Shown here: positions 1-62,478 of the stretch, piece after piece
Numbering within the stretch: position 1 is the stretch's first letter
Layout of the letters: each line of letters opens with the position of its first letter
Origin: a virus
IMG/VR virus record: IMGVR_UViG_3300045988_076131
Location: 1-64,000 of that record
Reading direction: 5' to 3' (one strand)
Length of the DNA: 64,000 bases
The notes under the pieces: model-generated
What the model was told of the DNA's origin: nothing
The model's database searches: none
What the model saw: the letters and a program-made list of their open reading frames with translations, nothing else
Program-made: the position numbers and the translations under genes

Positions 1-42
1 TTCCCAAGCCAGAGGTCACGGGTTCGAACCCCGCTTGCCGCT
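1..42 (+). tRNA. tRNA-Gly(CCC), 3' portion only (5' part is upstream of the window)
   Basis: nt 1-7 TTCCCAA = anticodon loop (CCC); AGGTC variable loop; T arm ACGGG/TTCGAAC/CCCGC; acceptor 3' strand TTGCCGC plus discriminator T; CCA not encoded. Confidence 0.7.
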
Positions 43-83
43 CTTGATTATAAAGTGCTGAAAATCAGTGGTTTTAGTATAGT

Positions 84-116
84 AAGGAGGTTCTTTTTGA
101 GCCTCCTTTTTTTGTT
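84..116 (+). terminator. intrinsic terminator after the tRNA
   Basis: AAGGAGG...CCTCCTT hairpin followed by a T run (TTTTTTG). Confidence 0.6.
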
Positions 117-161
117 GTCCCAAACCTCAAAGTGGTGGTTTGGGGCGTTTTAAAGCGTTGT

Positions 162-223
162 GTGGGTCGGTTTGTGGGACGCTTTGTGGGTCGAGTCCCA
201 CGTTTGATACGCCCGAGTCCCAC
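162..223. repeat. cluster of five GTGGGWC heptamers (three direct, two inverted)
   Basis: GTGGGTC 162-168, GTGGGAC 174-180, GTGGGTC 186-192, GTCCCAC 195-201 and 217-223, between the tRNA terminator and the repressor stop. Confidence 0.6.
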
Positions 224-226
224 AAG

Positions 227-748
227 TCAGTTCTTCTTGAGACGTTCCCGAAGTTCGGCTATTTCCGCCTCCTGCCTGGTTATTAGTTTGTCCTTGTCGG
301 CGAGCCACGCCTGCTGACTTGCAATCAGTCGGTCTTTTTCCGATAGCAGTTGCGCCTGTGCGTCAATCTTTTGCTCTAATGCCGTTATTTTGCCCTCTGT
401 GGCGTTTATTGTCTGCGTGCCTTGATAGTTATCGCCGCTGATGACGTTTTGCGACACAGGGCTTGCATTTGCGTCGAGCATCTGGTTGAATGCGGCGAAC
501 TGCGCCTTGCCGATTGCTTTTTCTTCGGCAAACATCTCGCCGATGCCATTGTAAAGCCACTTGTAGTTAGCCTTGAAGGTGTTAGCGATACGCATAAGGT
601 ATTCTACCGAAAAGCCGTTTTTAATGGCACGGCTAAAACTTTGAGGTGTGATGCCGCATTGTTCGGCAAAATCACCCTGCTTTAGTCCGACTTGTTTAAT
701 CAAGACCTTAACCCTTTCAGTTGTCGAATTTGTTGTCATAATTACCAA
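227..748 (-). CDS. CI-type phage repressor (N-terminal HTH, C-terminal coiled coil)
   Basis: 173 aa; VKVLIKQVGLKQGDFAEQCGITPQSFSRAIKNG...WLYNGIGEMF fits the CI/XRE HTH pattern; Q/E/L-rich heptad tail; divergent from a Cro-like ORF. Confidence 0.75.
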   Translation of the reverse strand: MVIMTTNSTTERVKVLIKQVGLKQGDFAEQCGITPQSFSRAIKNGFSVEYLMRIANTFKANYKWLYNGIGEMFAEEKAIGKAQFAAFNQMLDANASPVSQNVISGDNYQGTQTINATEGKITALEQKIDAQAQLLSEKDRLIASQQAWLADKDKLITRQEAEIAELRERLKKN

Positions 749-858
749 AGTGTTAATTTAAACCGCATATTTGTTAATTGGCAACGATTAGTCTGTAAAA
801 GAAAGTTAAACTCGTAAACTTTTAGTTACCAACATAGTAATTGTATGGTAATTTTTAC

Positions 859-866
859 TACCTTTG
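859..866 (+). promoter_or_regulatory. candidate Bacteroidota -7 promoter box TACCTTTG (TAnnTTTG)
   Basis: exact match to TAnnTTTG in the divergent intergenic region upstream of the Cro-like ORF; flanked by inverted CAACGATT / AATCGTTG half sites at about 785 and 868. Confidence 0.35.
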
Positions 867-958
867 CAATCGTTGACAGAGCGCAGCGAAACGAACCCAA
901 TCAGCTCGCAAAACGCTCAATATATGTTTAGTATGCAAATATAGCAATTATACTCGAA

Positions 959-1132
959 ATGACAAAGAGAAAAAGAATAAAACTTCGACAGGGATGCCAA
1001 ATTCTGTTGGCAAAGGACTGCGGAGTAGGGGTCGCAACAGTCCGACGCGCCCTGCAATGGGAATGCGACTCGGACATTCAGAACCTCATACGCAAACGAG
1101 CACATGAACTCGGATACGTGAAACGCTGGTAA
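959..1132 (+). CDS. Cro/antirepressor-like small HTH protein (57 aa, below ORF-track cutoff)
   Basis: MTKRKRIKLRQGCQILLAKDCGVGVATVRRALQWECDSDIQNLIRKRAHELGYVKRW; HTH-like LAKDCGVGVATVRRAL; divergent from the repressor. Confidence 0.5.
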   Translation: MTKRKRIKLRQGCQILLAKDCGVGVATVRRALQWECDSDIQNLIRKRAHELGYVKRW

Positions 1133-1182
1133 CGGACGGTACTGCCGTCACAACATAAACCAAACTTAAAGCAAGAAAGATT

Positions 1183-1380
1183 ATGAAACAGGCGACAGTA
1201 ACACAGATTGAGAAGATATGGCTCTCGAACAAGGAGGCGCAAGCGTACCTCGGCGTGGGCATGGACTTTCTCAAGAACCTCCGTTCAAGCGGACGTATCT
1301 CGTTCTTCAAGGTCGGCACAACGGTATTCTACCGCAAGCGCGACATTGATAAGCTCATTGAGAAAAATAGAGTATGTTAG
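1183..1380 (+). CDS. excisionase-family (MerR-like) HTH DNA-binding protein
   Basis: 65 aa; WLSNKEAQAYLGVGMDFLKNLRSSGRISFFKVGTTVFYRKRDIDKLI matches the excisionase/MerR HTH pattern. Confidence 0.6.
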   Translation: MKQATVTQIEKIWLSNKEAQAYLGVGMDFLKNLRSSGRISFFKVGTTVFYRKRDIDKLIEKNRVC

Positions 1381-1499
1381 AGTTAGAAATTCATTTCATA
1401 ACGGTTTTAAAAACTTTTGTTTCGGCGATATTTTAATCGCTTCGTCGCGAGACGATTTTTCTACACTTAGAAGTTTTTTTACTCATAAGGTTATAATTT

Positions 1500-2290
1500 A
1501 AATTGTTAGACAAACATGTTTCAAGCGTGAAACAAGCCCTGCGGTCGTCGCGAGGTGGTCGCAGGTTTTAAAAACAACGCGGAGTGGTGCAAAGGTAAGC
1601 ACGTGTGGGTCAGATTTCTTTCATAGGGTTAATAGATAGAATCACTCATAATTAGTCAGTCATAAGTTAAATAAGCAGTTAGCCCCACAAGATGCAGGTG
1701 TCGTAACCGCCTCCGCGACTTTAATTTGTTGTTATTGTTTTTGGTGGAAAACAGTTTGTAGTTGATTTAAGTTATTATTTGATAAAATTCCCCCGCAAAT
1801 CTGCGAAGACAAGCGGGTTTAACAAGGTCGGAACGCACGATTGGAAGTGCTGAGAACAATGGATAGGGCGCAGTTGTCTGTTTTTAAGCTTTAAATATTC
1901 TGGATGATGCCATTTGCTGAATAAATTCCTAATGCCCGAGCCTCGGAAAGTTCTTGCGGGTCGCACCGCTTCCGACCACAAAATAAAGACGTTCTTTGAA
2001 TTATTGACACACAGAAGAAAGGCATATAGGACGGCGCGAGACTGACAATCCAAGACCGCCGCTCAAGGATGCTGAGTAACGAAAGACCTGCTAAAGCATC
2101 TCCTGACGTAGCGAAAGCCGTGAAAGCGGATAGAATGAACCATGTCGAACTCTGAATTGTCGGCACAGGCAAAGCAAAAGGGAATGCAGTAGGCTGCACG
2201 CTCGTCGTGCAAGACGGTCGCACCGCAAAAGGTCTATAAAGGTGCGGAAAACAACAGACAGTTAGTGTTTGTCATATTATATAATCAAAG
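1500..2290 (+). ncRNA. candidate large structured non-coding RNA (boundaries approximate)
   Basis: about 1.1 kb without a plausible + strand ORF between 1381 and 2505; dense local helices (GATGCT 2068-2073 / AGCATC 2095-2100; GCACG 2196-2200 / CGTGC 2206-2210; CCTGCG/CGCAGG near 1539-1565). Four GAAAG loops within 190 nt (1945, 2081, 2113, 2123). Followed by a tRNA-like gene and a terminator. Confidence 0.4.
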
Positions 2291-2378
2291 AGGAGAGTGC
2301 GCGATTGGTAAGGCGAAGTCCTCGGAACTTTATACGAGTTCCGGGACTATAATACTGGTTCGATTCCAGTCTCTCCTC
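2291..2378 (+). tRNA. tRNA-like gene with an atypical, extended anticodon arm (identity undetermined)
   Basis: perfect 7-bp acceptor AGGAGAG/CTCTCCT; D arm with GG loop. T arm ACTGG-TTCGATT-CCAGT and 5-nt variable ATAAT. The anticodon arm is 32 nt (AGTCC-T-CGGAAC loop TTTATACGA GTTCCG-GGACT) instead of 17. Confidence 0.55.
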
Positions 2379-2450
2379 CTGCTTTCTAATTCTTTTTAAT
2401 TGGGTTAATAGGAATATGTAACTGATAATTTAATGGTATTAAGATGGGTT

Positions 2451-2488
2451 GTGTGTGCCGTTCGCGAGAATAGCACACATTATTTTTT
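2451..2488 (+). terminator. intrinsic terminator closing the non-coding unit
   Basis: GTGTGTGC ... GCACACAT 8-bp stem followed by TATTTTTT. Confidence 0.6.
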
Positions 2489-2505
2489 ACTAAAAAGAAA
2501 CTAAC

Positions 2506-3012
2506 GTGAAGCAAACGAACATCTACAGTCACAAGGGATGGCTAAAAGACATAACAATTCGGGAATACCCGTATTCTTCTGCCGGGGAGATAGCCGCAAG
2601 ACACGGCGTTTGCAGCGGCAGCGTCTGGTATTGGGTTAAAAAACTGGGCCTCCAGCAGACGGACGAGACGAAAGCCAGGATTTGGGAAAAGACCTATTGC
2701 CGTATCGGTCGTACCGTTAAAGAACATCCCGAGATCTGGCGAAAGAGTGCAGAAACAAGAAAGCGCACAATGATGATGGAGCGGTTTCGTGTAATGTCGG
2801 GGATGCCTCAGAAAACAAAGATACGCATTGCGATGCGACCCACCAAGGCGTACAAGGCGATATGGTATCTGGTGAATATGCGCAACTACTTCCGCGACAT
2901 TGAGGTGGGTGGCAGGTTCACGCTCTATTACGATGAACAAACGAAACGCTCCGGCAAGGAAGACTACTACATGAAATCCTGCGGACTGACGTTTGAGCAA
3001 GTGCAAAATTAG
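2506..3012 (+). CDS. HTH-containing protein (GTG start)
   Basis: 168 aa; SAGEIAARHGVCSGSVWYWVKKLG resembles an HTH; basic C-terminal half. Confidence 0.5.
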   Translation: MKQTNIYSHKGWLKDITIREYPYSSAGEIAARHGVCSGSVWYWVKKLGLQQTDETKARIWEKTYCRIGRTVKEHPEIWRKSAETRKRTMMMERFRVMSGMPQKTKIRIAMRPTKAYKAIWYLVNMRNYFRDIEVGGRFTLYYDEQTKRSGKEDYYMKSCGLTFEQVQN

Positions 3013-3124
3013 TTCTTCATATATTAACCATTAAAACCAAGCCGACAAGGACGGCTTGCAGGTGCGAATCCTGCCGTTTTGAAAACTTTTTTGATTTTTG
3101 ATTAAACTTGTTCTATAACAAGTT

Positions 3125-3276
3125 GGGATTGCGTCATGGGCACCAGTAAGTCATGAACGCTGCAAGCAAGGAGTGACGGGTTCTTTTCATCTATGTTTGT
3201 AACAATTCAAGCCTGTCATGTACCGAGCCTCTGGGAGCAAAACACACCGAGCAGGGTTGAAATCCCTGCAATCCCT
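3125..3276 (+). ncRNA. tRNA-like acceptor/D/T-arm module enclosing a ~95-nt central region
   Basis: perfect 7-bp GGGATTG (3125-3131) / CAATCCC (3269-3275) directly abutting a T-arm-like hairpin CAGGG-TTGAAAT-CCCTG (3252-3268). D-like hairpin TCATG...CATGA starts 2 nt after the 5' acceptor strand; centre not foldable by eye. Confidence 0.3.
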
Positions 3277-3301
3277 CTATTTTTAAAAACGACTGAATAT
3301 T

Positions 3302-3565
3302 ATGGGAATTGTATTTTCATCGGTCATCATAGTTCTTTTGCTCGTCGTATTCGCAGCAGTCACCCAGGCTGCGGTCGAGTACCTCGTTGACTGTGACGAC
3401 AATAACACAAAAAGGAGATGTAGCTCATGGGTAGAACAAAAGGATGTCACGACTGCATGTGGGGCAACTGGCCCGAGATGTGCAAAGACCCGAAGCGAGA
3501 CCCGAAGTCAAACTATTGCTGCTGCCAGTGGGAATGGCGACACGAATAAAAAACATACGGAATGA
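3302..3565 (+). CDS. hypothetical small membrane protein (uncertain)
   Basis: 87 aa with a hydrophobic N-terminus (IVFSSVIIVLLLVVFAAV); overlaps an alternative 40-codon ORF in another frame. Confidence 0.3.
   Translation: MGIVFSSVIIVLLLVVFAAVTQAAVEYLVDCDDNNTKRRCSSWVEQKDVTTACGATGPRCAKTRSETRSQTIAAASGNGDTNKKHTE
3427..3549 (+). CDS. Cys/Trp-rich micro-ORF (40 aa, uncertain)
   Basis: MGRTKGCHDCMWGNWPEMCKDPKRDPKSNYCCCQWEWRHE; preceded by AAAGGAG; ends 12 nt before the next ORF. Confidence 0.3.
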   Translation: MGRTKGCHDCMWGNWPEMCKDPKRDPKSNYCCCQWEWRHE

Positions 3566-7561: not shown

Positions 7562-8860
7562 ATGGCAAACGAAAACAAAATTATCGCCTATAAAGGCTTT
7601 GACAAAGATTTTAAATGCCGAGGTTTTCAATACGAGGTCGGCAAAACATACGAAATGGACGGCAATATTGCATGTTACAACCGTGGCTTTCACGCTTGCG
7701 AGTCGCCAATGGAGGTGTTCGACTATTATGATATGCTAACCTCTCGTTTCGCAGAAGTGGAACAATCCGGCAAAATGGACAAAGAAGCCGATTCAACAAA
7801 GACGTGTTCTTCGCGTATTAAAATCAAAGCAGAACTAAAACTTGCCGACATCATCAATTTGGGTGTTGAATGGCTGAAAGAAATTACTATGCCATCCAAG
7901 ATTGAAACAAATAACAGTTGCAATAAAGACTACTACGCTCAGATTGGTTCATCGGGCGACTACGCTCAGATTGGTTCATCGGGCGACTCCGCTCAGATTG
8001 GTTCATCGGGCTACTCCGCTCAGATTGGTTCATCGGGCGACTACGCTCAGATTGGTTCATCGGGCGACTCCGCTCAGATTGGTTCATCGGGCTACTCCGC
8101 TCAGATTGGTTCATCGGGCGACTACGCTCAGATTGGTTCATCGGGCGACTCCGCTAAGATTGGTTCATCGGGCTACTCCGCTCAGATTGGTTCATCGGGC
8201 GACTACGCTAAGATTGGTTCATCGGGCGACTACGCTCAGATTGGTTCATCGGGCTACTCCGCTCAGATTGGTTCATCGGGCTACTACGCTCAGATTGGTT
8301 CATCGGGCGACTACGCTAAGATTGGTTCATCGGGCAACTACGCTAAGATTGGTTCATCGGGCGACTCCGCTAAGATTGGTTCATCGGGCAACTACGCTAA
8401 GATTGGTTCATCGGGCGACTACGCTAAGATTGGTTCATCGGGCGACTACGCTCAGATTGGTTCATCGGGCTACTCCGCTCAGATTGGTTCATCGGGCTAC
8501 TACGCTCAGATTGGTTCATCGGGCGACTACGCTAAGATTGGTTCATCGGGCAACTACGCTAAGATTGGTTCATCGGGCGACTCCGCTAAGATTGGTTCAT
8601 CGGGCAACTACGCTAAGATTGGTTCATCGGGCGACTACGCTAAGATTGGCAGTAGTGGTAAAGATTCTGTCATAATGTGCGCAGGATACAACTCTAAAGC
8701 AAAGGCTGCTATTGGAAGTTGGATAACTCTTGCCGAATGGAAAAGGATAGAATATGTATGGAAACCGATTTGCGTAAAAACAGAACAGGTAGATGGGAAG
8801 CGCATTAAGGCAGACACCTATTACAAATTGATAGACGGCAAATTTGAGGAGGTTGAATAA
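7562..8860 (+). CDS. repeat protein: globular N-domain, 27 x 8-aa (x-x-A-Q/K-I-G-S-S-G) repeats, then a C-domain
   Basis: 432 aa; N-terminus KGFDKDFKCRGFQYEVGKTYEMDGNIACYNRGFHACESPMEVFDYY; the other frames of the repeat are low-complexity artefacts. Confidence 0.75.
   Translation: MANENKIIAYKGFDKDFKCRGFQYEVGKTYEMDGNIACYNRGFHACESPMEVFDYYDMLTSRFAEVEQSGKMDKEADSTKTCSSRIKIKAELKLADIINLGVEWLKEITMPSKIETNNSCNKDYYAQIGSSGDYAQIGSSGDSAQIGSSGYSAQIGSSGDYAQIGSSGDSAQIGSSGYSAQIGSSGDYAQIGSSGDSAKIGSSGYSAQIGSSGDYAKIGSSGDYAQIGSSGYSAQIGSSGYYAQIGSSGDYAKIGSSGNYAKIGSSGDSAKIGSSGNYAKIGSSGDYAKIGSSGDYAQIGSSGYSAQIGSSGYYAQIGSSGDYAKIGSSGNYAKIGSSGDSAKIGSSGNYAKIGSSGDYAKIGSSGKDSVIMCAGYNSKAKAAIGSWITLAEWKRIEYVWKPICVKTEQVDGKRIKADTYYKLIDGKFEEVE
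7928..8659 (+). repeat. 27 tandem copies of a 24-bp unit with a 192-bp higher-order duplication
   Basis: unit GAYTMCGCTMAGATTGGTTCATCGGGC; copies 12-19 and 20-27 share the same variant order (DYAQ,YSAQ,YYAQ,DYAK,NYAK,DSAK,NYAK,DYAK). Confidence 0.95.
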
Positions 8861-17386: not shown

Positions 17387-18396
17387 ATGGAAATACTCAA
17401 AGAAATCAAAGTTCCTACAGGTGAAATCTACACCGCAAAAGGAGACAAAGGCGCGTTGGAGTTTCTGACAGTAGCCGACTACGGAAAAGATGCAAACATC
17501 AAAGCCGACTTTCTCAGCATAACAAGAGAGCTGAATGGTGTGCCGAACGGAACACCAATGCCCTAACCGAAAAATGGGTGATAACAATCTCTACACAGTA
17601 CGGCTGCTCGATGAACTGCAAGTTCTGCGACGTGCCGAAAGTCGGGCCTGGGCGCAACGTAACTCTGAACGACCTGCGCAACGAGATAACAACGGCGTTA
17701 AGTATGCACCCAGAGGTTAACCATACCAAGCGTCTTAACGTACACTATGCGCGCATGGGCGAGCCGACATGGAACGAGGCTGTAATCGAACACGCACGTT
17801 TCTTCTTGCGTGATGATATTATTCCTTACATCGGAAATTCGCTTGTGCATCCTGTAGTAAGCACGATGCTTCCGAAGCATAATCGAGGCTTAAAAGACTT
17901 CATTCGTGAATGGGTTAGGGTAAAGAATCTCGACTACAACGGAAACGCAGGCTTGCAGTTCTCCATAAACTCTACTGACGACTCACAGCGAGAATACCTG
18001 TTCTCGGGTAACGCCATGCCATTGAGAGATATTGCAGAACTTGCCGACACACTTGAAACTCCGCGCGGTCGCAAGTACACCCTTAACTTCGCACTTGCTG
18101 ACGACTCAATCATTGACGGCAAGGTGCTTGCTTCGATGTTTGACCCACGCAAGTTTATGTGTAAGATTACACCGCTTCACCGAACAAACAGCTGCGAAGC
18201 CAACCATATTCAGACAAGTGGCGGCTACGACTCTTTCGTACCGTACAAGAAAGTGGAAGAAGATTTGAAAGCAAACGGATTTGATGTAATCGTGTTCGTT
18301 CCTTCGTATGACGAGGACAACGGGCTGATTACTTGTGGCAATGCAATCCTGTCCGGCAAGAAGCCGACATCAAGCTACAAGGAGGTAATATTTTAA
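17387..18396 (+). CDS. radical SAM enzyme (RlmN/Cfr-like layout), split by an apparent 1-nt deletion at CCC 17561-17563
   Basis: CxxxCxxC in ISTQYGCSMNCKFCD; ARMGEPTWN, LQFSINSTDD, CKITPLH, ITCGNA blocks parallel RlmN. The 59-aa upstream ORF (MEILKEIKVPTGEIY...GTPMP) joins in frame if CCC is CCCC (..PMPLTEKWVITIST..). Confidence 0.7.
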
Positions 18397-61449: not shown

Positions 61450-62478
61450 TTATAAGTTATGAAACAGGTCGCTTTGCCCAGACTGCTGCATCATGGAGCG
61501 ATATTTGTCAAGCTGATTTGTCGGCACGAACAGCCTCTCAGTAACAGAGCTTGTCTTTGTGGCGCATAGGCTCTGCTTGTGTTTGATGTTCCGCACCTCC
61601 GTAAATCTGTCTGCCGGCATGTAATACTCACTTATCAACACCAACTCCTCCTGATTGCAGCACCAGTCGTAAAATTCACTGTGATTGAACGGCTGTGTAA
61701 CCGAAGAGTTCTTGCCATAAGCATTTGTAGAGAAATACGGAATATCCGCATATATAACAGAGTTAGGCTGTATCTTAACCTCTCTGTAGTCCACCTCGGA
61801 GTACCGAAAGCTCTGTAGACGTTCGAGGCTTTCGAGGCTCTGTAGACGTTCGAGACGTTCGAGGCTCTGTAGACGTTCGAGACGTTCGAGGCTTTCGAGG
61901 CGATCAGTGTCGTAGCTTGTAGACAAGCTTGCGAACGAACCCGCCGAATTAGTCTTTAAACACTCCCTTATGGCAGAGCGGAACTTAATCCTCCTGTTAT
62001 GCCAACCCATAACTTCTCTGAGTGCCTCCTTGCACACCTCGCTTACGCCTGGATATAGGTCGCTTAAAAGACCAAAATCTCCGTATATTATAGCATAATG
62101 ACACGCTTTCTTGTACGGCTCAATGGCTTTCGAGTACAGATAATCACGCTGATTATTGCCGAAGCTCCAGCAGCAGGAGATGTATGGGTCGGTGTCTTTT
62201 AGCTTGGAGAAGTCCTCGCGGCTCACCCATCTCGTTTCCATGGCGTATTTGCCGTCCATGCCGTCACGGAAAAGCCTCAACGCCCGTCCGTCTATGTCGT
62301 TGGCGTAGCAGTGTCTATACCTGCCTTCGAGTAGCATTTTATGGGTCACGGCGCAGCCACCGGCAAACAAATCGTAGAAATTGTCAACGTCTTTATACGG
62401 AATCGCCTCCACCAATCTGTCTACTACCTGCGACTTGCTGCCCTTGTACGGAACTCCCCACCACTTGCGCTTAACCAT
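61450..62478 (-). CDS. Dam-like N6-adenine DNA methyltransferase with an internal tripeptide-repeat insertion
   Basis: start set at MVKRKWWGVPYKGSKSQ; FAGGCAV (motif I) and IYADIPY (DPPY variant); RLESLERLERLQSLERLERLQSLESLERLQ insert. Confidence 0.7.
   Translation of the reverse strand: MVKRKWWGVPYKGSKSQVVDRLVEAIPYKDVDNFYDLFAGGCAVTHKMLLEGRYRHCYANDIDGRALRLFRDGMDGKYAMETRWVSREDFSKLKDTDPYISCCWSFGNNQRDYLYSKAIEPYKKACHYAIIYGDFGLLSDLYPGVSEVCKEALREVMGWHNRRIKFRSAIRECLKTNSAGSFASLSTSYDTDRLESLERLERLQSLERLERLQSLESLERLQSFRYSEVDYREVKIQPNSVIYADIPYFSTNAYGKNSSVTQPFNHSEFYDWCCNQEELVLISEYYMPADRFTEVRNIKHKQSLCATKTSSVTERLFVPTNQLDKYRSMMQQSGQSDLFHNL
61813..61902. repeat. 10 tandem 9-bp units inside the Dam-like gene
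   Basis: CTGTAGACG / TTCGAGGCT / TTCGAGACG variants, in frame (RLQ/SLE/RLE). Confidence 0.95.

What the first reader, a model, noticed from the sequence alone, without database searches (positions are those of the whole stretch)
1381..2489. About 1.1 kb non-coding transcription unit: candidate large structured RNA ending in a tRNA-like gene and a terminator
Between the excisionase-like gene and the next CDS there is no credible ORF on either strand. The two minus-strand track ORFs overlap each other and are low complexity.

The + strand is packed with short helices, including 2068-2073/2095-2100 and 2196-2200/2206-2210. It has four GAAAG loops within 190 nt and an 11-nt direct repeat GGTCGCACCGC at about 1968 and 2216. 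The unit ends with a tRNA-like gene (2291-2378) and a clean intrinsic terminator (2451-2488).

Large ornate RNAs of unknown function (the GOLLD and ROOL classes) have been reported in prophages and next to tRNA genes, so this is the class to test. I cannot recognise any specific family by eye.
Basis: partly seen in the sequence, partly recalled or inferred. Interest (0 to 1): 0.7.

Follow-up and report, generated by a model that had tools for sequence, protein, structure and literature searches.

The report
Prophage RNA locus with tRNA-like modules
A 1.1 kb gene-free stretch in a gut Leyella/Prevotella prophage is a conserved, folded RNA locus made of several tRNA look-alikes with no usable anticodon plus a 310-base core, matches no catalogued RNA family, and probably relies on the host's tRNA-trimming enzymes to cut out stable small RNAs.

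Summary
Window 1381-2505 has no conserved ORF. It contains a tRNA-like element (2290-2378, Rfam tRNA 37.2 bits) and ends in a conserved intrinsic terminator (2451-2488).

All 39 distinct relatives, which belong to one prophage lineage of human-gut Leyella/Prevotella, keep the region at 75-93% identity. Diversity in the core is 0.06, against 0.09-0.25 at third codon positions of flanking genes. Twenty base pairs show compensatory changes, against 2-6 in slid controls. G-U pairs place the RNA on the + strand.

It is not ROOL, GOLLD or any other Rfam 15 family, and it is not one RNA "ending in a tRNA". It is modular:
- two leader hairpins;
- a cloverleaf-like module, TL0 (1578-1718);
- a tRNA-like module with a fast-evolving insert, TL1 (1826-1978);
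- a highly conserved 310-nt core (1979-2289);
- TL2, whose anticodon arm is either 12 bp long or absent.

A fourth module, TL3 (3125-3276), lies in the next intergenic region. None can decode.

Best reading (inferred): host RNase P and 3' tRNA-processing enzymes cut the transcript at these natural "tRNA scaffolds" and release stable RNAs. What those RNAs then do is unknown. Expression is untested.

The parts
1442..1460 (+). Terminator-like hairpin (TCGTC-GCGA-GACGA followed by TTTTTCT) just after the HTH_17 gene
   Evidence: Found by the consensus scan. Stem kept in all relatives. Weak in energy terms: -6.4 kcal/mol, z = -1.0.
1461..1517 (+). Variable AT-rich stretch. It may hold a weak internal promoter, and the RNA may start near 1507-1515 (inferred only).
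   Evidence: This is the least conserved part of the upstream end. There is no perfect Bacteroidetes -7 box TAnnTTTG here. The nearest perfect + strand box is at 859.
1518..1569 (+). Two leader hairpins: 1518-1533 (GTTTCA-AGCG-TGAAAC), and 1534-1569 (15 bp, GCGA tetraloop, four consecutive G-U pairs)
   Evidence: The G-U pairs are invariant in 39 sequences and would be A-C mismatches on the minus strand. Diversity 0.058.
1578..1718 (+). TL0, a cloverleaf-like module. Acceptor-like stem CGCGGAG/CTCCGCG (7 bp), then TG. D-arm-like GTGC-AAAGGTAA-GCAC. An 86-nt domain sits in place of the anticodon arm. T-arm-like hairpin GC(A)GGT-GTCGTA-ACCGC abuts the 3' acceptor strand. Discriminator A1718.
   Evidence: Recovered by single-sequence folds in 4 of 5 relatives and by the consensus fold. 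Nearly invariant, diversity 0.050. Weakest of the tRNA-like calls: 0 of 39 in the ARAGORN graft test, no covariation because it hardly varies, z = -0.8.
1719..1825 (+). AT-rich variable spacer with a conserved hairpin at 1792-1817 (CCCGC...GCGGG)
   Evidence: helices 16-18; pair 1763/1777 is UA in 21 and CG in 15. Diversity 0.121.
1826..1978 (+). TL1, a tRNA-like module. 8-bp acceptor stem 1826-1833/1970-1977. D-arm 1835-1850 (GCAC-GATTGGAA-GTGC). Fast-evolving insert about 1851-1937, in three versions. Hairpin 1938-1953. T-arm 1956-1969. The T-loop is degenerate in this window (GTCGCA) and canonical (TTCGACT) in about half of the relatives.
   Evidence: The acceptor stem has 3 pairs with changes on both sides (GC to AU, UA to CG, GC to AU, helix 19). 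The D-arm hairpin forms in 39 of 39 with four different stem sequences. ARAGORN graft test: 20 of 39, against 0 of 400 shuffled controls. Diversity 0.25.
1979..2289 (+). Core RNA, the most conserved part. Helices 2021-2025/2069-2073, 2029-2038/2056-2064, 2087-2092/2188-2193, 2096-2104/2180-2187, GNRA hairpin 2118-2129, 2136-2150/2159-2171, 2194-2200/2206-2213, 2219-2224/2241-2246 and 2252-2273.
   Evidence: Diversity 0.063 against 0.09-0.25 at third codon positions of flanking genes. Compensatory pairs: 2021/2073, 2030/2063, 2098/2185, 2148/2160, 2198/2208 and 2200/2206. No Rfam match. Fold energy is not better than shuffles.
2290..2378 (+). TL2, a tRNA-like module. 8-bp acceptor stem including G-1:C73. 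U8, and a D-loop ATTGGTAA. T-arm ACTGG-TTCGATT-CCAGT. The anticodon arm is replaced by a 5+7-bp rod with loop TTATACG. In 10 of 39 relatives the arm is missing altogether.
   Evidence: Rfam tRNA 37.2 bits. z = -4.3. Compensatory changes in the acceptor stem (AU 30, GC 9) and in 3 T-stem pairs between the long and short forms. Graft test 39 of 39. ARAGORN does not call it in native form.
2379..2450 (+). Trailer: the nearly invariant CTGCTTTCTAATTC, followed by a variable spacer
   Evidence: Diversity 0.126. The consensus fold pairs 2382-2392 with 2074-2085 in the core, but no covariation supports this.
2451..2488 (+). Intrinsic terminator, 18 nt before the GTG start at 2506
   Evidence: 12-bp stem plus T-run, -16.4 kcal/mol, z = -3.6. 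Conserved, with one-sided G-U changes only (helix 43).
3125..3276 (+). TL3, outside the finding: a further tRNA-like module in the next intergenic region. Acceptor GGGATT/AATCCC. D-arm TCATG...CATGA. About 90-nt insert. T-arm GCAGGG-TTGAAAT-CCCTGC (canonical GCAGG-TTCAAAT-CCTGC in other relatives).
   Evidence: Acceptor pairs 3126-3128/3272-3274 and D-arm pairs change on both sides between the two haplotypes. Graft test 14 of 24. The T-loop hairpin scan also finds 3059-3073.

Best explanation
The gap is a non-coding RNA locus of a temperate Leyella/Prevotella phage. It lies in the early rightward region, after the cro-like and HTH_17 genes.

Shown here. The + strand folds into two leader hairpins, three cloverleaf or tRNA-like modules (TL0, TL1, TL2) and a 310-nt conserved core between TL1 and TL2. 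It ends at an intrinsic terminator. The modules keep the parts of a tRNA that processing enzymes read: a 12-13-bp acceptor/T-stem stack, a D-loop with GG and a T-loop. The anticodon arm is replaced by a long rod or a branched, fast-evolving insert, or is deleted. They therefore cannot decode.

Inferred. The primary transcript comes from the promoter box at 859 by read-through, or from a weak internal promoter. Host RNase P cuts it at the 5' edge of each module and the host 3' tRNA-processing and CCA-adding enzymes act at the 3' edge. This is tRNA punctuation, a natural version of the engineered 'tRNA scaffold'. It would release nuclease-protected small RNAs: the inserts carried in TL0, TL1 and TL2, and the core RNA with defined ends near 1979 and 2289.

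Unknown. What the released RNAs do. My guess is control of early development or host takeover, including counter-defence.
For: - Conservation. Every relative found keeps the whole region at 75-93% identity. Diversity is 0.050 in TL0 and 0.063 in the core, against 0.09-0.25 at third codon positions of flanking genes.
- Not coding.
- Structure. 97.9% of cells are paired. 20 pairs change on both sides, against 13.7 +/- 1.8 in shuffles (0 of 500 reach it) and 2-6 in slid controls. 154 cells change on both sides, against 7-22 in slid controls.
- Strand. G-U pairs far outnumber A-C pairs.
- tRNA-likeness. Rfam tRNA hit for TL2. With a generic anticodon arm grafted in, ARAGORN calls TL2 in 39 of 39, TL1 in 20 of 39 and TL3 in 14 of 24, against 0 of 400 shuffled controls.
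- Dispensable arm. The long and short forms of TL2 differ by compensatory changes in the acceptor, D and T stems, so the anticodon arm is not needed.
- No CCA needed in the gene. The host tRNA-Gly gene at the window start does not encode CCA either.
- Established knowledge. RNase P recognises the acceptor/T-stem stack and the D/T elbow and does not need the anticodon arm. A 7-bp acceptor stem is a major determinant (PMC4201824). Engineered RNAs inserted in the anticodon stem of a tRNA scaffold are processed and protected in bacteria (PMC3753655).
Against: - No expression or processing data were available.
- There is no perfect Bacteroidetes promoter box inside the unit.
- The core folds no better than shuffled sequence (z = +0.56).
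- All homologues are one closely related, recombining lineage. Each compensatory change may be a single event, so statistical power is limited.
- TL0 fails the graft test (0 of 39).
- In this particular window TL1 and TL3 carry non-canonical T-loops.
- One relative (L058) lacks 2172-2224 of the core.
Confidence: 0.5

Rival explanations
1. One large ornate RNA of about 800-970 nt works as a single molecule. The tRNA-like modules are built-in structural domains. This would be analogous to GOLLD or ROOL, possibly multimeric, with no internal processing.
For: GOLLD and ROOL are found in prophages near tRNAs. GOLLD has a conserved 3' region, a variable 5' region and sometimes tRNAs in its linker (PMC12286853, PMC5737381). 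The layout here is similar: a variable 5' half, a conserved 3' core and GNRA tetraloops. The consensus fold proposes long-range pairs 1513-1515/2404-2406 and 2074-2085/2382-2392 that would enclose TL2.
Against: No Rfam hit to GOLLD or ROOL at E <= 10 in two divergent members. The long-range closing pairs show no covariation. Intact 7-8-bp acceptor stems with elbow nucleotides are expected to be cut by RNase P in vivo. The core is not unusually stable.
Confidence: 0.2
2. The tRNA-like modules are themselves the effectors. They act as decoys or inhibitors for host factors that bind tRNA, such as tRNA-cleaving defence nucleases. The fast-evolving inserts would reflect an arms race.
For: Phage tRNAs are known to counter tRNA-targeting defences (PMC11555353, PMC10802454). 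The scaffold is conserved while the TL1 insert evolves as fast as or faster than silent sites (diversity 0.25). The TL2 arm is present or absent among near-identical phages.
Against: Known counter-defence tRNAs replace cleaved tRNAs and need an anticodon, and these modules have none. No defence system or target was identified. This reading does not explain the core, which is the most conserved part.
Confidence: 0.12
3. A cis-acting leader that controls read-through from the cro/HTH_17 transcript into the early genes. The RNA would modify RNA polymerase or sense a signal between the two terminators (1442-1460 and 2451-2488).
For: The position is right: between the lysis-lysogeny switch and the early genes, bracketed by terminators. 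The downstream gene starts 18 nt after the second terminator. The only perfect + strand promoter boxes are at 859 and 3192.
Against: Known RNA antiterminators, such as HK022 put (my own knowledge), are about 70 nt, not about 1 kb. Nothing explains several tRNA-like modules. No alternative terminator/antiterminator pairing was seen. TL3 lies in a different intergenic region.
Confidence: 0.08
4. A decaying island of phage tRNA genes (pseudogenes with insertions) that no longer has any function.
For: The modules look like tRNAs with disrupted anticodon regions. T-loops are degenerate in some alleles, including this window's TL1 and TL3.
Against: Stems are maintained by compensatory changes. Diversity in TL0 and the core is two to four times lower than at silent sites. 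No relative carries an intact tRNA at any of these positions.
Confidence: 0.04
5. A DNA-level element, such as a replication origin, packaging site or attachment site, or a hidden protein gene.
For: The region has AT-rich stretches and inverted repeats. Minus-strand ORFs of 79-175 aa are present in relatives.
Against: Strand-specific G-U pairing. Universal tRNA elbow nucleotides and an Rfam tRNA hit. The ORFs fail every coding test.
Confidence: 0.04

Closest known systems
GOLLD and ROOL large ornate RNAs
   Same: Encoded in prophages and phages and associated with tRNAs. Hundreds of nucleotides long. GOLLD has a conserved 3' region, a variable 5' region and sometimes embedded tRNAs. Function unknown (PMC12286853, PMC5737381).
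   Different: No match to either Rfam model. The embedded elements here are non-decoding tRNA mimics, not tRNAs. The core is only about 310 nt and is not thermodynamically remarkable. Distribution is one phage lineage rather than several phyla.
Engineered 'tRNA scaffold' for recombinant RNA (Ponchon and Dardel; PMC3753655)
   Same: The acceptor stem, T-arm and D-arm are kept, and the anticodon stem-loop is turned into an insertion site that carries a foreign structured RNA. In that system the chimera is processed and protected by the cell's tRNA machinery.
   Different: That system is man-made. Here the architecture is natural and present as four different modules. Processing and stability have not been measured.
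Bacterial Y RNAs (YrlA), tRNA mimics (PMC4201824)
   Same: Non-coding RNAs with D-arm, T-arm and acceptor-like stem. One (M. smegmatis YrlA) is cut by RNase P and receives CCA. Some are phage-encoded.
   Different: In YrlA the RNA ends lie at the 'anticodon' side in a Ro60-binding stem, and the RNA is encoded next to Ro60 (rsr). Here the ends are at the acceptor stem. No Ro60 gene was found among the proteins scanned, and no Rfam Y-RNA match was seen.
tmRNA
   Same: A tRNA-like domain formed by the two ends of the RNA, with a large structured insert in place of the anticodon arm.
   Different: No tmRNA call by ARAGORN or Rfam. No tag reading frame. A full D-arm is present. There are several modules in tandem.
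RNase P-processed phage immunity RNAs (P1/P7 C4 RNA, P4 CI RNA) and tRNA-like 3'-end processing (MALAT1-mascRNA, MHV68 TMERs); from my own knowledge
   Same: Small regulatory RNAs, or the ends of long RNAs, are produced by tRNA-processing enzymes acting on tRNA-like folds. C4 and CI are encoded in the immunity or early region of temperate elements.
   Different: No antisense target longer than 13 nt was found in the window. The modules here are full cloverleaves with large inserts. No sequence similarity was tested or expected.

Membership tests
GOLLD RNA (Rfam) | Match to the Rfam covariance model (sequence plus conserved 3'-domain structure) | tested here: not met
   No hit at the gathering score. 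No hit at E <= 10 on window 1100-3400 or on relative L059 2900-4010.
GOLLD RNA (Rfam) | Prophage or phage location near tRNAs; conserved 3' part and variable 5' part | tested here: met
   Prophage context. Conservation profile. This is context only and does not define the family.
ROOL RNA (Rfam) | Match to the Rfam covariance model (multistem junctions and pseudoknots) | tested here: not met
   no hit at E <= 10.
tRNA (decoding) | Cloverleaf that reaches the Rfam RF00005 gathering score | tested here: met
   TL2 only: 37.2 bits against 29. 37.3 bits in L059.
tRNA (decoding) | 5-bp anticodon stem with a 7-nt loop that presents an anticodon | tested here: not met
   In TL2 the loop position holds 22 nt, which fold into a further 7-bp stem, or the whole arm is absent in 10 of 39 relatives. 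TL0, TL1 and TL3 carry 85-100-nt inserts. ARAGORN calls none of them in native form.
tRNA-like RNase P substrate | Acceptor stem of 7 bp or more stacked on a T-stem (12-13 bp in all), plus a D-loop GG / T-loop elbow | tested here: met
   TL2 is 8/5, TL1 is 8/4 and TL3 is 6/6. Canonical T-loops occur in TL2 (all relatives), TL1 (about 20 of 39) and TL3 (14 of 24). Graft test; sequences.
tRNA-like RNase P substrate | Actual cleavage by RNase P at the 5' end of the acceptor stem | not testable with these tools
   Needs an in-vitro RNase P assay or 5'-end mapping.
tmRNA | tRNA-like domain plus a tag-peptide reading frame, detected by ARAGORN or Rfam | tested here: not met
Bacterial Y RNA (YrlA) | Rfam match and a neighbouring Ro60 (rsr) gene | tested here: not met
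   No Rfam hit. No Ro60/TROVE domain among the 50 window proteins scanned with Pfam. Not every ORF was scanned.
Antisense immunity RNA (P1 C4 / P4 CI type) | Loop sequences complementary to target sites in the same operon | tested here: inconclusive
   No complementarity longer than 13 nt between 1500-2500 and the rest of the window. Short kissing-loop matches cannot be told from chance.
Intrinsic terminator | G+C-rich stem followed by a U-run, conserved | tested here: met
   2451-2488: (helix 43).

The most novel reading that the evidence does not exclude
This phage lineage uses natural tRNA scaffolds. Each is a tRNA chassis (acceptor, D and T arms) that the host's tRNA-maturation machinery excises, caps with CCA and protects. 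In place of the anticodon arm it displays exchangeable, fast-evolving RNA payloads, and two such chassis bracket a conserved 310-nt RNA. This would be a modular way of expressing phage small RNAs, for instance immunity or counter-defence determinants, that has not been described in nature.
Probability: 0.3. Interest if true: 0.85.

Novelty: new variant of a known kind. Interest (0 to 1): 0.66.

Why it matters
If the RNAs are made and processed as proposed, this would be a natural counterpart of the engineered tRNA scaffold. It would also be a new, abundant class of gut-phage non-coding RNA. The phage lineage is common in human gut metagenomes: its protein clusters hold hundreds of member sequences. 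It also has a cultured lysogen, Leyella stercorea MSK.21.24.

It would give a tractable system for a long-standing question raised by GOLLD and ROOL, namely why large phage RNAs sit with tRNAs. It would show how tRNA mimicry without decoding is used by phages of Bacteroidota, where RNA biology is poorly known. The TL2 acceptor stem with G-1:C73 raises the testable possibility of histidine charging.

Tried and rejected
- Rfam. Searches at the gathering score and at E <= 10 on the window and on a divergent relative found only tRNA.
- ARAGORN. Default settings gave nothing. Relaxed settings gave inconsistent calls, which I discarded.
- GenBank phages. BLAST in distant mode found no match.
- Search for more distant homologues. 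I used DNA patterns in viral contigs, a 20-mer in 185,579 species genomes (one real hit, L. stercorea, plus one chance hit in an Opitutales MAG), a protein-anchored scan of metagenomes, distant protein relatives and their contigs, and DUF4494-anchored relatives in cultured Bacteroides and Parabacteroides phages, which are densely coding there with no such gap. Everything that carries the RNA belongs to one lineage.
- The DUF4494 protein search returned only close relatives and was of no use.
- Hidden gene: rejected.
- Thermodynamic support for the core: not found.
- Antisense targets in the phage: none above chance.
- Linkage between module variants, as a sign of RNA-RNA partnerships: the variants form a mosaic with no clear association.
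- Internal perfect promoter box: none.
- Phage-encoded RNA-processing enzymes: none seen among the 50 proteins scanned.
- The 11-nt direct repeat as a functional element: rejected because it is not conserved.
Full report
**Setting**

The window begins inside a host tRNA-Gly(CCC) gene. From there it runs through a prophage for all 64 kb:
- a CI-like HTH repressor, 227-748 on the minus strand;
- a small cro-like HTH protein, 959-1132;
- an HTH_17 protein of the excisionase/regulator family, 1183-1380;
- further on, DUF4494, a YqaJ recombinase, DUF6291, large terminase, portal, tape measure and DNA methylases.

A 93% identical prophage is present in Leyella (Prevotella) stercorea MSK.21.24. The finding covers the 1.1 kb between the HTH_17 gene and a 168-aa gene that starts with GTG at 2506.

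**The observation**

It is correct at the stated coordinates, give or take a base.

The only ORFs of any length are two overlapping minus-strand ORFs. Relatives also carry minus-strand ORFs of 79-175 aa, which is expected because the + strand is A-rich. They are not genes:
- variable sites fall 25/32/30 on the three codon positions;
- codon differences are 198 synonymous to 623 non-synonymous;
- 22 of 38 relatives have in-frame stops;
- 31 of 38 have indels that break the frame.

Rfam finds one family in the whole window, tRNA at 2291-2378 (37.2 bits, gathering score 29). Its alignment has a 21-nt insertion where the anticodon loop should be. ARAGORN finds nothing.

The terminator at 2451-2488 is a 12-bp stem plus a T-run with z = -3.6. 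GAAAG is truly enriched: five copies in 181 nt against 1.66 per kb. The 11-nt repeat exists but is not conserved.

One caveat applies. The fold energy of 1990-2289 is no better than that of shuffled sequence on either strand (z = +0.56 and -0.14). By energy alone, 'packed with helices' would be chance.

**Conservation and structure**

Protein-anchored and DNA-pattern searches brought in IMG/VR contigs, human-gut metagenome contigs and one isolate genome. All belong to one prophage lineage, and every one carries the whole non-coding region at 75-93% identity.

Nucleotide diversity across 24 genomes:

| Segment | Diversity |
|---|---|
| 1578-1718 (TL0) | 0.050 |
| 1979-2289 (core) | 0.063 |
| Third codon positions, six flanking genes | 0.09-0.25 |
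| First and second codon positions, same genes | 0.004-0.18 |

These parts are therefore under purifying selection.

I aligned 39 distinct sequences (A3). The RNAalifold consensus has 238 pairs. Counting on that alignment:

| Measure | Observed | Shuffles | Slid controls |
|---|---|---|---|
| Cells paired | 97.9% | 96.9% | 39-45% |
| Pairs changed on both sides | 20 | 13.7 +/- 1.8 (0 of 500 reach it) | 2-6 |
| Cells changed on both sides | 154 | 49.7 | 7-22 |

About ten separate helices carry compensatory changes. Among them:
- the long-range helix 1826-1833/1970-1977, with three pairs;
- 2148/2160, AU in 18 and GC in 20;
- 2198/2208 and 2200/2206;
- 2098/2185;
- 2021/2073;
- 2030/2063.

G-U pairs are common and A-C pairs are rare. 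One example is the four consecutive invariant G-U pairs in hairpin 1534-1569. This places the RNA on the + strand, the same strand as the flanking genes, the tRNA-like element and the terminator.

The limits should be stated plainly. The sequences are close relatives that recombine, so each compensatory change may be one event. The structure was also predicted on the same alignment that was used for counting.

**Anatomy: modules, not one RNA ending in a tRNA**

*TL2 (2290-2378).* It has an 8-bp acceptor stem (G-1:C73 plus seven pairs), U8, a D-loop ATTGGTAA and a T-arm ACTGG-TTCGATT-CCAGT. Its 'anticodon arm' is a 5+7-bp rod. In 10 of 39 relatives the arm is missing, and the D-arm is joined to the T-arm by seven nucleotides. 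The two forms also differ by compensatory changes in the acceptor, D and T stems. The top half and elbow of the tRNA are therefore what selection keeps, and decoding is excluded.

*TL1 (1826-1978).* The same architecture recurs upstream:
- an 8-bp covarying acceptor stem;
- a D-arm hairpin that forms in 39 of 39 sequences with four different stem sequences (GCAC/GTGC, GGTAC/GTACC, GGTGC/GCACC, GGCAC/GTGCC);
- a T-arm GCGG-TTCGACT-CCGC that directly abuts the 3' acceptor strand.

An insert of about 85-100 nt sits in between. It exists in three diverged versions and evolves at least as fast as silent sites, with a diversity of 0.25.

*TL0 (1578-1718).* This is a nearly invariant cloverleaf: a 7-bp stem, then TG, a D-arm GTGC-AAAGGTAA-GCAC, an 86-nt middle domain and a T-like hairpin next to the 3' strand. 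Its T-loop has six nucleotides.

*TL3 (3125-3276).* It lies outside the finding, in the next intergenic region. Its acceptor and D stems change on both sides between two haplotypes, and its T-arm is canonical (GCAGG-TTCAAAT-CCTGC) in most relatives.

*An objective test.* I spliced a generic anticodon arm into each module and ran ARAGORN at default settings:

| Module | Called as tRNA |
|---|---|
| TL2 | 39 of 39 |
| TL1 | 20 of 39 |
| TL3 | 14 of 24 |
| TL0 | 0 of 39 |
| Shuffled controls | 0 of 400 |

No relative has an intact tRNA at any of these places.

*The core.* Between TL1 and TL2 lies the best-conserved segment, 1979-2289. It has at least five covariation-supported helices and a GNRA hairpin that varies GAAA/GCAA.

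**How it most likely works**

*Shown.* A conserved, + strand, structured, non-coding locus made of tRNA-like chassis and a core, ending in a terminator.

*Inferred from established knowledge.* RNase P reads the acceptor/T-stem stack and the elbow, not the anticodon arm (PMC4201824 describes this for a tRNA-like Y RNA). The 3' tRNA-processing and CCA-adding enzymes likewise act on the top half. Any transcript through this region should therefore be cut at the module borders. The host's own tRNA-Gly gene lacks an encoded CCA, as do the modules.

The design equals the engineered tRNA scaffold, in which the acceptor, T and D arms are kept and a payload replaces the anticodon stem-loop. That design makes foreign RNAs stable in bacteria (PMC3753655). 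The predicted products are the payload-bearing TL RNAs and a core RNA of about 310 nt with ends defined by TL1 and TL2.

*Transcription.* It most likely comes from the perfect Bacteroidetes -7 box at 859, by read-through of the weak hairpin at 1442-1460, or from an imperfect internal promoter near 1500. No perfect box lies inside the unit.

*Not known.* What the products do. I found no antisense target in the phage, no RNA-handling enzyme among the 50 proteins scanned, and no association between module variants.

**Comparison with known systems**

The closest in context are GOLLD and ROOL. They are prophage-encoded, lie near tRNAs and have unknown function. GOLLD also has a conserved 3' part, a variable 5' part and sometimes embedded tRNAs (PMC12286853, PMC5737381). 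Membership fails: neither Rfam model matches in two divergent members.

The closest in mechanism are:
- the man-made tRNA scaffold;
- tmRNA, a tRNA-like domain with a large insert (no ARAGORN or Rfam call, and no tag frame here);
- YrlA Y RNAs, which have the opposite topology and sit next to a Ro60 gene, not found here;
- from my own knowledge, RNase P-processed phage immunity RNAs (P1/P7 C4, P4 CI) and tRNA-like end-processing signals (MALAT1-mascRNA, MHV68 TMERs).

GenBank phages contain nothing similar. Distant cultured relatives that share DUF4494 have no such gap.

**Verdict**

The finding is real and is not already catalogued. 'A large RNA ending in a tRNA-like gene' is too simple. The locus is an array of non-decoding tRNA mimics with expanded or deleted anticodon arms, flanking a conserved core.

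My confidence by level of claim:
- a functional structured RNA locus: about 0.85;
- processing by tRNA enzymes: about 0.6;
- the whole best explanation as stated: about 0.5.

The main weaknesses are the lack of expression data, the narrow phylogenetic range, the unremarkable fold energy of the core, and the unknown final function.

Noticed in passing
window 3013-3301: The next intergenic region is also structured. It holds TL3 (3125-3276), with compensatory changes in its acceptor and D stems. It also holds a hairpin at 3039-3057 that changes AAGCCG/CGGCTT to GAGTTG/CAACTC, followed by a T-loop-like hairpin at 3059-3073. A perfect promoter box TATGTTTG at 3192 lies inside the TL3 insert.
   Followed up: partly
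window 1-230: The window starts inside a host tRNA-Gly(CCC) gene that ends near 44, with no encoded CCA. A terminator hairpin follows at about 84-110. After it come three direct TGTGGGWC and two inverted GTCCCAC motifs (150-225), which look like arm-type recombinase sites of the prophage left end. No integrase was identified among the 50 ORFs scanned with Pfam.
   Followed up: partly
window 750-958: A divergent promoter region lies between the CI-like repressor and the cro-like gene. Perfect Bacteroidetes -7 boxes sit at 859 (+, TACCTTTG) and 943 (-, TATATTTG).
   Followed up: no
window 7562-8860: This ORF combines DUF7666 with collagen triple-helix repeats. Its DNA carries a 27-nt tandem repeat array at about 7930-8650.
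   Followed up: partly
window 2506-3012; loci L064, L065: The 168-aa protein after the terminator has no Pfam family. Its distant relatives (33-38% identity) sit directly upstream of a large terminase or carry faint HTH_3/Terminase_5 hits. It may therefore be a small-terminase-like HTH protein, here placed in the early region. In some relatives (L028, L031, L061-L063) its 5' part is replaced and an extra 87-aa gene is present.
   Followed up: partly
locus L058 (equivalent of window 2172-2224) and L055 (2150-2158): One relative lacks 53 nt of the conserved core and another lacks the loop of hairpin 2143-2165. These are either natural deletion variants or assembly errors.
   Followed up: no
window 2290 and 2378: In all 39 relatives the TL2 acceptor stem has an extra G-1:C73 pair, the hallmark of tRNA-His identity. 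HisRS can charge minihelices that carry it (my own knowledge).
   Followed up: no
window 61845-61886: Two copies of GACG-TTCGAGA-CGTT lie 27 nt apart on the + strand, inside a minus-strand N6-adenine methyltransferase ORF. The T-loop hairpin scan picked them up, and they are probably chance.
   Followed up: no
window 17578-18396: A weak radical-SAM hit below the Pfam cut-off. The distantly related Bacteroides phage BKO1-TP3 also encodes a radical SAM protein near its DUF4494 gene.
   Followed up: no
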